A stretch of DNA of 64,000 nucleotides, from the NCBI RefSeq assembly GCF_013122565.1, contig NZ_CP053258.1; one strand, written 5' to 3'. Of the stretch, positions 38,401-44,400 are shown in pieces. The position numbers were made by a program. Every line of letters begins with the position of its first letter. The stretch's first letter is position 1. Origin of the DNA: Escherichia coli (GTDB taxonomy: Bacteria; Pseudomonadota; Gammaproteobacteria; Enterobacterales; Enterobacteriaceae).

Positions 38401-41400
38401 TGGAGAACGACTGGTCCGGATATTTGCTGGCGATCGTTTGCCTCATTGCCGCACAAATCATTGCCCGCATGATGATCAAATTCCCCGAACACCGCCGTGC
38501 TCTTTGGCAAATTGTATTGTTGATGTTTGTCGGGACATTGTTCTGGGTACTGGCACAACAGGGCGGCAGTACCATCAGCTTGTTTATCGATCGCTTTGTG
38601 AATCGTCAGGCATTCAATATTGAAGTACCTACAGCACTATTCCAGTCGGTGAATGCAATTGCGGTGATGCTCGCTGGGGTTGTTCTGGCCTGGCTGGCGT
38701 CGCCAGAAAGTCACGGCAACTCAACATTGCGCGTCTGGCTGAAGTTTGCCTTTGGCTTACTGCTGATGGCTTGTGGGTTTATGTTGCTGGCATTTGATGC
38801 CCGACATGCAGCAGCTGACGGTCAAGCGTCAATGGGCGTGATGATATCCGGGCTGGCGCTAATGGGCTTTGCCGAACTCTTTATTGACCCGGTGGCGATT
38901 GCGCAAATCACGCGTCTGAAAATGTCTGGCGTATTAACCGGTATTTATATGCTGGCAACAGGCGCGGTCGCCAACTGGCTGGCAGGCGTCGTGGCACAGC
39001 AGACGACAGAGTCGCAAATTAGCGGTATGGCAATTGCAGCTTACCAGCGATTCTTTTCTCAGATGGGAGAGTGGACGTTGGCTTGTGTCGCGATCATCGT
39101 GGTATTGGCCTTTGCTACCCGTTTTCTGTTTAGCACGCCGACGAATATGATACAGGAGAGCAACGATTAACTGTCGTAAAAACAATTGGTTATGAATAAA
39201 TTAACTTTCAGCTTATAACACTAGCAAATCGAGATTAATAAGTCATTTAAACCATTTCGATGGTTATTTATTAGTGATATCAACTTGAGGTAAGCGTTAG
39301 TTTCGATAAGATAAACTGAGTTATTAATAGTCGAGGCAGATAATACAGTGTACCGATCTGTCTCTTTATCTACGCTAAATTGAAAGCTGGATTTAGAGGA
39401 ACCAAAATGTCTGAACAAGAAACACGGGGAGCCAATGAGGCTATTGATTTTAACGATGAACTGAGAAATCGCCGCGAAAAACTGGCGGCACTACGTCAGC
39501 AAGGTGTGGCGTTTCCCAATGATTTTCGCCGCGACCATACCTCTGACCAGTTGCACGAAGAGTTTGATGCGAAGGATAACCAGGAACTGGAATCCTTAAA
39601 CATTGAAGTCTCGGTTGCTGGCCGAATGATGACCCGTCGTATCATGGGGAAAGCCTCCTTTGTAACGTTGCAGGATGTCGGTGGCCGTATTCAACTGTAC
39701 GTCGCACGAGATAGCCTGCCAGAAGGTGTTTATAACGATCAGTTTAAAAAATGGGATCTGGGTGACATTATCGGTGCCCGCGGTACGCTGTTTAAGACGC
39801 AAACGGGTGAGCTTTCCATTCACTGTACTGAGCTGCGCCTGCTGACTAAAGCACTACGTCCTTTACCAGATAAATTCCATGGTCTGCAGGATCAGGAAGT
39901 CCGTTATCGTCAACGTTATCTGGACCTCATCGCTAACGATAAATCCCGTCAAACGTTTGTTGTCCGTTCAAAAATTCTGGCCGCTATCCGCCAGTTCATG
40001 GTCGCGCGCGGCTTTATGGAAGTAGAAACCCCGATGATGCAGGTAATTCCAGGTGGGGCATCTGCTCGCCCGTTTATTACCCATCATAACGCTCTGGATT
40101 TAGATATGTATCTGCGTATCGCGCCGGAGCTGTATCTGAAACGTCTGGTTGTAGGCGGTTTTGAACGGGTATTCGAAATCAACCGTAACTTCCGTAATGA
40201 AGGTATTTCTGTTCGCCATAATCCTGAGTTCACAATGATGGAACTCTACATGGCGTATGCGGATTACCACGATTTGATTGAACTGACAGAGTCACTGTTC
40301 CGCACCCTGGCACAAGAGGTTCTGGGTACCACTAAAGTCACTTATGGCGAGCATGTGTTTGATTTCGGCAAACCGTTTGAAAAACTCACCATGCGCGAAG
40401 CAATCAAAAAATATCGTCCAGAAACCGATATGGCCGACCTGGATAATTTTGATGCTGCTAAAGCATTAGCTGAATCTATCGGAATTACGGTAGAGAAAAG
40501 CTGGGGGCTGGGACGTATTGTCACGGAGATCTTTGATGAAGTGGCAGAAGCACATCTGATTCAGCCAACCTTTATTACGGAATATCCGGCAGAAGTGTCA
40601 CCGCTGGCGCGCCGTAATGATGTTAACCCAGAAATCACCGACCGTTTTGAATTCTTCATCGGTGGTCGTGAAATCGGTAATGGTTTTAGCGAATTAAACG
40701 ACGCAGAAGATCAGGCTGAACGTTTCCAGGAACAGGTTAACGCTAAAGCTGCAGGTGACGACGAAGCCATGTTCTATGACGAAGATTACGTGACTGCGCT
40801 GGAATATGGTCTGCCGCCAACCGCTGGCCTGGGTATTGGCATCGACCGAATGATTATGCTGTTTACTAACAGCCATACTATTCGCGACGTTATTCTCTTC
40901 CCGGCGATGCGCCCACAGAAATAAATTTCACTTTAATGAACGAAGCAGTCAGGCGACTGCTTCGTTCATCGTTCCGCAAATCCAGTTTTGAGGAGAGACG
41001 CTTCGTTTCACGATAACCAGCGGGTCCACTCAACTACAGCTCCTAAAAGAGAGAAAAAAGTAATGCCACGGGCAGACTCATTGGCCAGGTTATTCCGACC
41101 AGGAATGCACTAAGTAAACGAATATGTGTTTTCTCATGTGAGATAAACCAGATAATGACAAAGGATATGTTCACACCAATCACATAAAAAATTAATATTT
41201 TAGAGAATAGCGCCATTTTTTATGTTCTTCTTATCCTTCCTGGCTACTTGTAAAACTGACGGAAATAGTCATCAACTGTCATAATGTTGAGGTCAAAATC
41301 AATATCCGGTAAGTCTAAGCATTTAAGCCTGATTAAATCTTCGATTTCACTTGCGGCTAACGATGTCGTTATTGCGAAGGAATTTTCATTCAATTGTCGT

Positions 41401-44400
41401 GGTATCCCATATTCATCAGCCACGATAGAAGAGAAATTCATATCATACATCAATGATCTTAACCTTAAGAACACTGAGGAATAAGATGATGGATAATCAA
41501 AAGAAACAACATAAGTATTGAACTTGTTTTTACCTTCCATAATATGACTCCTATCAATATTAAACGCTCTGGGGACGCAAAACTTATTAACCCCGATTGA
41601 TGATTCTCATATAGGAGATATTCTTTTTTTTGCTCAGTAAAGGGGATGACTTGGGACAAAAAAACGCTCTCTCTGCCCATTCTTTGTGCATCCCCCTACC
41701 CTTCAGATGCTCTCCTGCATCACTCCGCGGAGAGCATGAAAAATATCGTGAATCTGTACTCTCCCATCAACTGCGAATATCATCATACTCCCGCGTTTTA
41801 TCAAATTCGTGTTTCGCAAATGGACATAATGGGATAATTTTTCGTTTTTCCCGACGCATTTTTTCCACGACTTTCGCAACCAGCTGTTTACCAATCCCTT
41901 GCCCTTTCAGGCTTTCATCGACATCGGTATGTTCGATAATCGCTAAATTCTCTCCAGTCGGCACAAAGACAATTTCAGCGATTTGCTTGCCCTGTTCGTC
42001 ATTAATGTAAAATTTATTGTGGCCTTCGCGTATTTCCATTTTACCCTCGCTTATTTATGACGGTATTTCAGCGCGCCGCTCGGGCACGTATCAATCACTT
42101 TAACCACAGTGGCGACGTCGACTTCATCCGGCATGATCCACGGCTTTCGTTTGAGATTAAATAACTTGCCGTTGCCACGTACGCAATTGCCAGAATGCTG
42201 ACATATCGCAGTGTTGAAATAGACATCGATCTTTTCGCCGGTATAACAGCGATAACCCTCGTCCAGTAGCGCCTGATCCATGACCTTCCCTCTCTCATCA
42301 GTATGGTTTTCACTATAAGCATAGCCCTGGAATCTTCATACAGCACTGGCAGTTTCCGTTGCCAGAGTCTCTTCCCCTATATAGCCAATCATTCTTACTC
42401 CCTTTGAATTACCCGCCTCATCAGAGATAATGCTTAAGAAATTTGTCACACAAGGAAGCTGATGAGACATTCATTGCCCTACCGCATGTTACGCAAACGT
42501 CCGATGAAATTGAGTACCACAGTGATCTTAATGGTCAGCGCGGTACTGTTCTCGGTGCTATTGGTGGTGCATCTGATTTACTTCTCGCAAATCAGTGATA
42601 TGACGCGAGACGGGCTAGCCAACAAGGCACTGGCAGTGGCGCGTACTCTCGCCGACTCGCCGGAAATCCGTCAGGGCTTGCAGAAAAAACCGCAGGAGAG
42701 CGGCATCCAGGCCATCGCGGAAGCCGTGCGCAAACGCAACGATCTGCTGTTTATTGTCGTTACCGATATGCAAAGTCTTCGCTACTCGCATCCTGAAGCC
42801 CAGCGTATTGGTCAGCCATTTAAAGGTGATGACATCCTTAAAGCGCTGAATGGCGAAGAAAATGTCGCTATCAATCGCGGTTTTCTGGCGCAGGCTTTAC
42901 GCGTATTTACCCCCATCTACGATGAAAATCATAAACAAATTGGCGTGGTGGCGATCGGCCTTGAGTTAAGCCGCGTGACCCAACAGATCAATGACAGTCG
43001 CTGGAGCATTATCTGGTCAGTATTATTTGGCATGCTGGTCGGACTGATTGGCACCTGCATTCTGGTTAAAGTACTGAAAAAAATCCTTTTCGGCCTGGAA
43101 CCCTACGAAATCTCCACGCTGTTTGAGCAACGCCAGGCCATGTTGCAGTCTATCAAAGAAGGCGTCGTTGCCGTGGACGATCGCGGCGAGGTCACGCTGA
43201 TCAACGATGCCGCACAAGAATTGCTGAATTACCGTAAGTCGCAGGACGATGAGAAACTGTCGACGCTAAGCCACTCGTGGTCACAGGTGGTAGATGTCTC
43301 GGAAGTGTTACGCGACGGTACCCCGCGCCGCGACGAAGAGATTACGATTAAAGATCGGCTATTACTGATCAACACCGTTCCGGTGCGCAGTAATGGCGTT
43401 ATCATCGGTGCCATTTCAACCTTCAGGGACAAAACTGAAGTACGTAAACTGATGCAGCGACTCGATGGTCTGGTCAACTATGCTGACGCACTTCGTGAAC
43501 GATCCCACGAATTTATGAATAAATTGCATGTGATTCTCGGATTATTGCATCTGAAGAGTTATAAGCAGTTGGAAGATTACATTCTCAAAACAGCCAATAA
43601 CTATCAGGAAGAGATTGGCTCTCTGCTGGGTAAGATCAAATCTCCGGTTATCGCTGGTTTTTTAATCAGCAAGATTAACCGCGCGACCGATTTAGGCCAT
43701 ACGCTGATTTTAAACAGTGAAAGCCAGCTGCCAGACAGCGGCAGTGAGGACCAGGTCGCGACGCTGATTACCACATTGGGAAATCTGATAGAAAACGCGC
43801 TGGAAGCATTAGGGCCGGAACCCGGTGGCGAAATTAGCGTAACATTGCACTACCGTCACGGCTGGCTGCACTGCGAAGTTAACGATGATGGACCGGGGAT
43901 CGCACCCGACAAAATCGATCACATTTTTGACAAAGGTGTCTCGACAAAAGGAAGCGAGCGAGGCGTCGGTTTAGCACTTGTCAAACAACAGGTAGAAAAT
44001 CTCGGCGGCAGCATCGCCGTGGAATCGGAACCCGGGATTTTCACACAATTTTTTGTCCAGATACCCTGGGACGGGGAGAGGTCGAACAGATGATCAATGT
44101 ATTAATTATCGATGACGACGCAATGGTCGCGGAGCTGAATCGCCGATACGTAGCACAAATCCCAGGCTTTCAATGCTGTGGAACAGCCTCGACGCTGGAG
44201 AAAGCCAAAGAGATTATCTTCAATAGCGATACGCCTATCGACCTGATATTGCTCGATATCTATATGCAAAAAGAGAACGGGCTCGATTTACTGCCTGTCC
44301 TGCATAACGCGCGTTGCAAAAGTGATGTGATTGTCATCTCCTCCGCAGCCGATGCGGCAACCATTAAAGATTCGCTGCATTACGGTGTCGTGGATTACCT

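What the first reader, a model, noticed from the sequence alone, without database searches (positions are those of the whole stretch)
41043..41540. ghoS-ghoT type V toxin-antitoxin pair
A 98-aa GhoS (RNase antitoxin) is followed by a 57-aa hydrophobic GhoT toxin that is too short for the ORF track. The pair sits in an AT-rich stretch between lysU and yjdJ. It is a known system but the only clear toxin-antitoxin module in the window, and ghoT would be missed by length-filtered gene calling.
Basis: partly seen in the sequence, partly recalled or inferred. Interest (0 to 1): 0.25.

Follow-up and report, generated by a model that had tools for sequence, protein, structure and literature searches.

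The report
Known E. coli ghoS-ghoT toxin-antitoxin pair
This is the ordinary, already characterised E. coli ghoS-ghoT toxin-antitoxin operon, intact and with proteins identical to the laboratory strain's; the only unusual detail is one silent base change in the toxin gene.

Summary
Two minus-strand ORFs lie exactly at 41244-41540 (98 aa) and 41043-41216 (57 aa). They match Pfam GhoS (6e-41) and Toxin_GhoT_OrtT (9e-26). Both proteins are 100% identical to E. coli K-12 GhoS (b4128, structure 2LLZ) and GhoT (b4559). Gene order around them (dtpC-lysU | ghoT-ghoS-yjdJ-yjdI | dcuSR) is that of K-12, reversed. The locus is AT-rich, GC 0.34-0.39 against about 0.5 in the flanks. It occurs in 5341 of 5426 complete E. 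coli genomes, where RefSeq annotates it as the type V TA system. Three small corrections apply. Both genes are on the minus strand. The entericidin ecnA/ecnB antidote/toxin pair is also in the window. Standard annotation does call ghoT. One new detail: a silent change in ghoT codon 2 (GCA to GCG, position 41211) creates a 5'-GCU, the MqsR cleavage motif that published work says ghoT mRNA lacks. This allele was absent from 5283 complete genomes and 10 metagenome contigs. It is compatible with neutral drift and its effect is untested. Interest is low.

The parts
41541..41766 (-). yjdJ-ghoS intergenic region (226 nt), presumed to hold the ghoST promoter. The promoter was not located.
   Evidence: The sigma-70 consensus scan found no minus-strand site. 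A relaxed scan gave only one 8/12 match at 41770-41742. This is the least conserved part of the locus, with 18 variable sites among 8 alleles. No Rfam family matches here.
41548..41552 (-). Shine-Dalgarno AGGAG of ghoS, 7 nt upstream of the ATG.
   Evidence: Read directly from the sequence. It is invariant in 8 E. coli alleles.
41244..41540 (-). ghoS, 98 aa, the endoribonuclease antitoxin. It has the catalytic R28 and three 5'-GCU motifs at CDS nt 121, 213 and 221.
   Evidence: Pfam PF11080, 6.1e-41. 100% identical to PDB 2LLZ and to K-12 b4128. The four nucleotide differences from K-12 are all synonymous. GCU count. The role of R28 is from PMC4010927.
41217..41243 (-). 27-nt ghoS-ghoT spacer, CCAGGAAGGATAAGAAGAACATAAAAA. 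It is purine-rich with only weak Shine-Dalgarno-like elements: GGAAGGA 17 nt and AAGAAG 10 nt before the ghoT ATG.
   Evidence: Sequence. It is identical in 7 of 8 E. coli alleles, with one change in O157:H7, and also in the divergent E. coli M056 locus L016.
41043..41216 (-). ghoT, 57 aa, a small hydrophobic membrane toxin. It has two hydrophobic segments (about residues 7-26 and 34-57) around a polar loop SHEKTHIR, and F38 is present.
   Evidence: Pfam PF10753, 8.9e-26. 100% identical to K-12 b4559. GRAVY is 1.50 (hydropathy profile). The protein is identical in all 17 other E. coli-type alleles examined. F38R abolishes toxicity according to PMC4344625.
41209..41211 (-). A 5'-GCU motif at ghoT CDS nt 6-8, created by the window-specific silent change GCA to GCG in codon 2 (position 41211).
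   Evidence: The exact 70-mer 41181-41250 is absent from 5283 complete E. coli genomes. The allele is absent from JGI metagenome contigs, while 10 contigs carry the A allele.
40936..40969 (.). Perfect 15-16 bp hairpin between the convergent lysU and ghoT genes. It is probably a shared transcript-end or stabilising stem-loop.
   Evidence: RNA folding gives -32.8 kcal/mol, z -6.0 on the plus strand, and z -3.7 for the minus-strand 3' region. There is no U tract, so the consensus scan does not call it a terminator. The one polymorphism inside the stem (40968) keeps pairing as a G-U wobble. The stem is also present in L016.

Best explanation
The feature is the chromosomal ghoS-ghoT operon of E. 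coli, the founding type V toxin-antitoxin system. Shown here: the two genes are intact and co-oriented on the minus strand, 27 nt apart. Their products are identical to K-12 GhoS and GhoT and include the residues reported as functionally critical (GhoS R28, GhoT F38). From published work on the identical proteins: GhoT is a 57-aa two-helix inner-membrane peptide that damages the membrane, lowers ATP and produces 'ghost' cells. GhoS is a stable, Cas2-like endoribonuclease. It neither binds the toxin nor represses the promoter; it neutralises GhoT by cleaving the ghoT part of the mRNA. In the published cascade, the type II toxin MqsR cuts at 5'-GCU, destroys the ghoS part of the transcript (three GCU sites) and spares ghoT (none in K-12), so GhoT is made under stress. 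Inferred for this window: the same mechanism operates because the proteins, the ghoS ribosome-binding site and the spacer are unchanged. The exception is that this allele's ghoT mRNA carries one GCU at codons 2-3, so MqsR could in principle cut it as well.
For: The ORFs lie at the exact coordinates. Pfam gives GhoS 6.1e-41 and Toxin_GhoT_OrtT 8.9e-26. GhoS is 100% identical to PDB 2LLZ 'yjdK'. Both proteins are 100% identical to K-12 b4128/b4559, and all six coding differences are synonymous. Synteny and annotation agree in K-12 and O145. The locus is in 5341 of 5426 complete E. coli genomes. GhoT protein is invariant, and the start codons, the ghoS AGGAG and the 27-nt spacer are conserved across alleles spanning 97.7-99.5% nucleotide identity. 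The ghoS-then-ghoT pairing is kept in divergent relatives in other gene neighbourhoods (GhoS 77% and 84% identical). GhoT has two hydrophobic segments. The mechanism comes from the literature: PMC4344625, PMC4010927, PMC4905990, PMC5408214 and PMC10846083.
Against: Nothing contradicts the identification. Caveats apply to the mechanism. No biochemical step can be tested with these tools. No consensus promoter or canonical terminator was found for the operon. The Shine-Dalgarno element of ghoT is weak or distant. This allele has one GCU in ghoT, whereas the published cascade rests on ghoT lacking GCU. The physiological role of MqsRA in stress responses has been questioned, as noted in PMC11205521, and some E. 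coli lineages with ghoST have no mqsRA. The absence of GCU from a 174-nt gene of this composition is expected by chance about 9-10% of the time.
Confidence: 0.95

Rival explanations
1. The genes are bona fide ghoS and ghoT, but at native expression the module is physiologically silent. On this view it is a conserved chromosomal passenger without a stress-activated toxin role, and the MqsR-to-GhoT cascade is an over-expression phenomenon.
For: No recognisable promoter was found for the operon, and ghoT has a weak ribosome-binding site. [quoted passage not shown] The locus has been lost without obvious consequence in some genomes, for example IS1-associated loss in strain E41, and 85 of 5426 genomes show no match.
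Against: GhoT protein is identical in every E. coli allele examined, and all its polymorphisms are synonymous. The pair is retained in 98% of complete genomes and in divergent relatives. This argues for purifying selection on a function. Phenotypes of ghoT deletion under antibiotic stress are reported in PMC4344625.
Confidence: 0.2
2. The 57-aa ORF is a chance open frame in AT-rich DNA downstream of a single gene (ghoS/yjdK), not a real toxin gene.
For: It is short and lies in AT-rich sequence. NCBIfam has no model for it.
Against: Pfam PF10753 matches at 8.9e-26 over the full length. The amino-acid sequence is invariant while six synonymous sites vary. A ghoT homologue follows ghoS in distant loci at 72-81% nucleotide identity. 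It is the experimentally studied K-12 gene b4559.
Confidence: 0.01
3. In this particular lineage the silent GCA-to-GCG change makes ghoT mRNA a substrate for MqsR. If so, MqsR activation would destroy both halves of the transcript and the type II to type V cascade would be weakened or lost.
For: There is a GCU at CDS nt 6-8 of ghoT in the window only. It is absent from 5283 genomes and 10 metagenome contigs. MqsR cleaves single-stranded 5'-GCU, and ghoT is cited as one of only 14 E. coli mRNAs without the motif (PMC4905990).
Against: It is a single synonymous SNP. 8 of 118 possible synonymous changes in ghoT would create a GCU, so seeing one among about 7 polymorphic sites is what drift predicts. 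More distant ghoT homologues carry 1-2 GCU sites, so the GCU-free state is not a family-wide constraint. The site lies within the ribosome footprint at the start codon and may be protected. Whether this strain has mqsRA is unknown, because that locus is outside the window. A sequencing error cannot be excluded.
Confidence: 0.1

Closest known systems
GhoT/GhoS type V toxin-antitoxin system of E. coli K-12 (ghoS b4128 / ghoT b4559; GhoS structure PDB 2LLZ)
   Same: The amino-acid sequences of both proteins are identical. So are gene order, the 27-nt spacer, the ghoS ribosome-binding site, the flanking genes (lysU, yjdJ) and the three GCU sites in ghoS.
   Different: There are six synonymous nucleotide differences. 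One of them (codon 2 of ghoT, GCA to GCG) introduces a 5'-GCU motif that K-12 ghoT lacks. The window is in the opposite orientation to the K-12 coordinate system.
OrtT (YdcX), orphan GhoT-like toxin of E. coli
   Same: It belongs to the same Pfam family (PF10753), has the same length of 57 aa, and is reported to be 63% identical to GhoT with two predicted transmembrane helices and a conserved F38 (PMC4344625).
   Different: OrtT has no adjacent antitoxin, is not neutralised by GhoS, and its mRNA has two GCU sites. The window gene is GhoT itself, with GhoS immediately upstream.
Cas2 (CRISPR-associated endoribonuclease)
   Same: GhoS is described as a structural homologue of Cas2 that shares five catalytic residues (PMC4010927).
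   Different: GhoS here stands with a membrane toxin gene. The K-12 annotation of the syntenic 67 kb lists no cas genes or CRISPR array. The relationship is one of fold, not of system membership.
Entericidin ecnA/ecnB locus (same window, 17428-17807)
   Same: It is also a small chromosomal pair in which one product antagonises a membrane-active, lytic small protein (K-12 annotation).
   Different: Both entericidins are lipoproteins and paralogues of each other (about 55% identical). No RNase antitoxin is involved, and the pair is not classed among TA types I-VIII.

Membership tests
Type V TA system GhoT/GhoS | The antitoxin is a protein of the GhoS endoribonuclease family. | tested here: met
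   PF11080 at 6.1e-41, 138.8 bits against a cut-off of 21. 100% identical to PDB 2LLZ and to K-12 b4128.
Type V TA system GhoT/GhoS | The toxin is a small hydrophobic two-helix membrane peptide of the GhoT_OrtT family. | tested here: met
   PF10753 at 8.9e-26, 90.4 bits against a cut-off of 22.1. 57 aa, GRAVY 1.50, two hydrophobic segments split by SHEKTHIR. 100% identical to K-12 b4559.
Type V TA system GhoT/GhoS | Bicistronic layout with the antitoxin gene first and the toxin gene immediately downstream on the same strand. | tested here: met
   ghoS is at 41540-41244 and ghoT at 41216-41043, both on the minus strand with a 27-nt spacer. The same layout is found in K-12, 6 other E. coli genomes and the divergent loci L011 and L016.
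Type V TA system GhoT/GhoS | The functionally critical residues are present (GhoS R28; GhoT F38). | tested here: met
   Both residues are present in the translations. Their importance is reported in PMC4010927 and PMC4344625.
Type V TA system GhoT/GhoS | The antitoxin neutralises the toxin by cleaving the toxin mRNA, not by binding the toxin or repressing transcription. | not testable with these tools
   This is known for the identical K-12 proteins from the literature. It needs an RNA cleavage assay. The primary paper (PMC3514572) was not held.
MqsR-controlled ghoST cascade (a regulatory feature, not a family criterion) | ghoS mRNA contains 5'-GCU sites while ghoT mRNA contains none. | tested here: not met
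   ghoS has 3 GCU. ghoT has 1 GCU (nt 6-8) in the window, against 0 in K-12 and in 16 other E. coli-type alleles. This does not affect membership of the GhoT/GhoS family.
OrtT-type orphan toxin | A GhoT-like toxin without a cognate adjacent antitoxin. | tested here: not met
   GhoS is encoded 27 nt upstream, so the toxin is GhoT, not OrtT.

The most novel reading that the evidence does not exclude
This E. coli lineage carries a ghoT allele with a 5'-GCU at codons 2-3, not seen in any of 5283 complete genomes or 10 metagenome contigs. This may make the toxin mRNA cleavable by MqsR. If so, it would be a natural variant in which the published type II (MqsR) to type V (GhoT) activation cascade is blunted. 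It would also offer a one-nucleotide natural test of whether the GCU-free state of ghoT matters.
Probability: 0.1. Interest if true: 0.25.

Novelty: already known. Interest (0 to 1): 0.08.

Why it matters
It matters little beyond correct annotation. The window carries an intact copy of a textbook system, so this finding can be closed. The silent GCU-creating change is a minor curiosity. If real and functional, it would be a natural single-base probe of the differential-mRNA-decay model in which MqsR spares ghoT. The chance calculations here bear on that model. A GCU-free ghoT is expected by composition about 10% of the time, and 7% of possible synonymous changes would create a GCU. More distant ghoT homologues also carry GCU sites. 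Together these suggest the GCU-free state is not strong evidence of selection.

Tried and rejected
1. NCBIfam scan: no model matched GhoS or GhoT. This reflects library content and is not evidence against identity.

2. Consensus promoter and terminator scan of 40850-41800: there were no minus-strand promoter hits and no terminators. The three plus-strand promoter-like hits are at chance level (3 found against 2.5 expected). A relaxed minus-strand scan gave only one 8/12 match, and it overlaps the yjdJ stop codon. The ghoST promoter therefore remains unlocated.

3. Rfam scan of the whole window: nothing was found in or next to the locus, so there is no evidence of an RNA antitoxin or other RNA element.

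4. Antisense ORFs within the locus, such as 41284-41484 (+, 66 aa), were considered and dismissed. They are unannotated in all the genomes examined and overlap a conserved CDS.

5. The primary papers PMC3514572 and PMC3620836 were not held. The GhoS cleavage-site motif could therefore not be retrieved or searched for in the ghoT mRNA.

6. I tried to find the window's ghoT allele elsewhere. There was no exact match in complete E. coli genomes or in JGI metagenomes. A control pattern with N at the SNP found 10 contigs, all carrying A.

7. I considered whether the window is Shigella, because it has no exact match among E. coli genomes. I rejected this because cadCBA and all the other genes are intact and there are no IS elements.

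8. The heavy representative-protein search, structure prediction and fold search were not run. The protein is identical to a solved structure, so they would add nothing.
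Full report
**Observation.** The ORF listing finds two minus-strand ORFs at exactly the reported coordinates. One is 41244..41540 (ATG, 98 aa, MEGKNKFNTYVV...RQFYK). The other is 41043..41216 (ATG, 57 aa, MALFSKILIFYV...LLFSLF). In the direction of transcription the 98-aa gene comes first and the 57-aa gene follows after a 27-nt spacer. lysU (39407-40924, +) converges on the 57-aa gene. yjdJ (41767-42039, -) and yjdI lie upstream on the same strand, followed by the divergent dcuSR. GC content falls to 0.34-0.39 across 41000-41750, against 0.45-0.54 in the flanking genes.

**Identity.** Pfam assigns the 98-aa protein to GhoS (PF11080, 6.1e-41). It assigns the 57-aa protein to Toxin_GhoT_OrtT (PF10753, 8.9e-26). 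Both matches are full-length and far above the gathering scores. The 98-aa protein is 100% identical over all 98 residues to PDB 2LLZ ('yjdK', the former name of GhoS). An ungapped comparison with E. coli K-12 MG1655 shows 39 substitutions in 3.3 kb. Six of them fall inside the two genes and all six are synonymous, so both proteins are identical to K-12 b4128 and b4559. The whole 64-kb window is collinear with K-12 4,395,736-4,328,480 in reverse orientation, at about 98-99% identity.

The 771-nt locus is found in 5341 of 5426 complete E. coli genomes. There RefSeq annotates the genes as 'type V toxin-antitoxin system endoribonuclease antitoxin GhoS' and 'toxin GhoT'. NCBIfam holds no model for either protein, which is a gap in that library.

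- ghoT has 6 variable sites in 174 nt, all synonymous.
- ghoS has 12 variable sites in 297 nt, two of them non-synonymous (Y32H, N85S).
- Both ATG start codons are invariant, as is the AGGAG of ghoS (41548-41552, 7 nt before the ATG).
- The 27-nt spacer is invariant except for one change in O157:H7.
- Ten metagenome contigs with the locus also encode an identical GhoT.
- The ghoT ribosome-binding site is weak: GGAAGGA lies 17 nt and AAGAAG 10 nt before the ATG.
- The yjdJ-ghoS intergenic region is the most variable part, with 18 variable sites in 226 nt.

**Relatives elsewhere.** A search of 5.8 billion proteins with GhoS returned only 47 hits, nearly all from E. coli or Shigella. That search needs shared 5-residue words, so it can miss distant relatives. 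The most divergent full-length relatives keep a 57-aa GhoT_OrtT gene 26-27 nt downstream, but in different neighbourhoods.
- In L011 (GhoS 77% identical) the pair lies between amino-acid decarboxylase/permease operons.
- In L016, E. coli M056 (GhoS 84% identical), the lysU-ghoTS segment is inverted relative to cadA.

The pair therefore behaves as a unit. It can also be lost: strain E41 has an IS1 where ghoST and lysU should be.

**Anatomy around the genes.** A perfect 15-16 bp stem-loop at 40936-40969 sits between the convergent lysU and ghoT. Folding gives -32.8 kcal/mol and z = -6.0 on the plus strand, and z = -3.7 for the minus-strand 3' region. It has no U tract on either strand, so the consensus scan does not call it a terminator. 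I read it as a shared transcript-end or stabilising hairpin, which is inference. The only polymorphism inside it keeps pairing as a G-U wobble. No sigma-70 consensus promoter was found upstream of ghoS on the minus strand. No Rfam family matches in or near the locus.

**Mechanism.** Shown here:
- The two genes are intact and in operon arrangement.
- GhoT has two strongly hydrophobic segments (about residues 7-26 and 34-57) around the polar loop SHEKTHIR, with GRAVY 1.50.
- GhoS R28 and GhoT F38, the residues reported as critical, are present.

Taken from the literature on the identical K-12 proteins:
- GhoT is a membrane-damaging toxin that lowers ATP and lyses cells.
- GhoS is a stable antitoxin that does not control transcription and acts by specifically cleaving ghoT mRNA (PMC4344625; PMC4905990).
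- GhoS is a structural homologue of Cas2 (PMC4010927).
- MqsR preferentially cleaves the ghoS part of the ghoS-ghoT mRNA at 5'-GCU, which enriches ghoT (PMC5408214; PMC10846083).

Inferred: the same holds in this strain. None of the biochemical steps can be tested with these tools. The physiological importance of the MqsR link is disputed (PMC11205521).

**The one difference.** On the coding strand the window has G rather than A at position 41211, so ghoT codon 2 is GCG rather than GCA. This creates GCU at CDS nt 6-8. K-12, six other genomes and ten metagenome contigs all have no GCU in ghoT and three in ghoS. The literature stresses that ghoT is one of only 14 E. coli mRNAs without GCU.

The exact 70-mer around the site is absent from all 5283 complete genomes that hold the region; the listed top hits are one mismatch away. 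The allele-specific 36-mer is absent from JGI metagenome contigs.

I do not think this is significant on present evidence.
- A 174-nt gene of this composition lacks GCU by chance about 9-10% of the time.
- 8 of the 118 possible synonymous single-base changes in ghoT would create a GCU, so one such change among about seven polymorphic sites is what drift predicts.
- The more distant ghoT homologues carry one or two GCU sites.

It remains a cheap natural test of the differential-decay model.

**Comparison with the known and verdict.** The feature is a member of the GhoT/GhoS type V TA family, and in fact the founding system itself. All sequence-level defining features were tested and met. The RNA-cleavage step is not testable here. 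The toxin is not OrtT, because the antitoxin gene is adjacent. It is not part of a CRISPR-Cas system either.

- Both genes are on the minus strand.
- The window also contains the intact entericidin ecnA/ecnB antidote/toxin pair.
- Standard RefSeq annotation does call ghoT.

Novelty: already known. Interest: low.

Noticed in passing
window 16300-16345 (frdD-blc junction): The chromosomal beta-lactamase gene ampC is absent. After the frdD stop codon comes a hairpin plus T run (ggcctgccgttggcaggcc ttttt) and then blc directly; K-12 positions 4377783-4378958 have no counterpart. Among 5426 complete E. coli genomes only 29 cover the junction. Those listed are 'laboratory developed' deletion strains with a different scar (95% identity, two pieces).
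   Followed up: partly
window 49193-49214: The melibiose permease gene melB is cleanly absent. About 20 nt separate the ends of yjdF and melA, while melA and melR are intact.
   Followed up: no
window 9811-9999: K-12 yjeN and yjeO are absent. An unrelated 188-bp segment lies between mscM and yjeM in their place.
   Followed up: no
window 17428-17571 (-) and 17685-17807 (-): The entericidin pair is intact: ecnB (bacteriolytic lipoprotein, 97.9% identical to K-12) and ecnA (its antidote, 100%).
   Followed up: partly
window 41181-41250 and the whole window: The window matches no complete RefSeq E. coli genome exactly at this locus (best 99.5% over 771 nt). It also carries private SNPs in lysU (40828, 40840) and ghoT (41070, 41211). 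All genes, including cadCBA, are intact and there are no IS elements. It is therefore an E. coli lineage, not Shigella, that is not represented among the 5426 complete genomes.
   Followed up: partly
L013 1050-1457 (also L014, L015; protein P0042, 91 member sequences): Some metagenome contigs hold a ghoS-like frame about 65% identical to GhoS. It has no start codon at the expected place, has K in place of the catalytic R28, and has no stop codon. It runs in frame into a ghoT-like gene that has its own strong ribosome-binding site (AAGAGGG). This is either a decaying antitoxin next to an intact toxin or a GhoS-GhoT fusion.
   Followed up: partly
L011 3978-4526; L016 3978-6238: In divergent hosts ghoST lies beside amino-acid decarboxylase/antiporter operons. 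In L011 the ghoST DNA is 81% identical to the window, while the flanking cadBA-like genes are only 68-71% identical, which hints at horizontal movement of the pair. In E. coli M056 (L016) the lysU-ghoTS block is inverted relative to cadA.
   Followed up: partly
L005 (E. coli E41, NZ_CP069707.1 4412512-4419547): This is a natural loss of ghoST. An IS1A element and foreign genes (an ABC permease and a formylglycine-generating enzyme family protein) abut yjdJ where ghoS, ghoT and lysU would be.
   Followed up: no
window 17262-17308 (-): A Guanidine-II (mini-ykkC) riboswitch lies upstream of gdx/sugE (Rfam RF01068, 50.4 bits).
   Followed up: no
window 60268-60433 (-): There is a full-length match to the enterobacterial sRNA family STnc630 (RF02052, 177.7 bits). 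It overlaps the pmrR small-protein gene region between proP and basS.
   Followed up: no
window 3082-3498 (-): Three tRNA-Gly genes (glyVXY) are present, but their spacing differs from K-12. About 120 nt (3268-3386) do not align.
   Followed up: no
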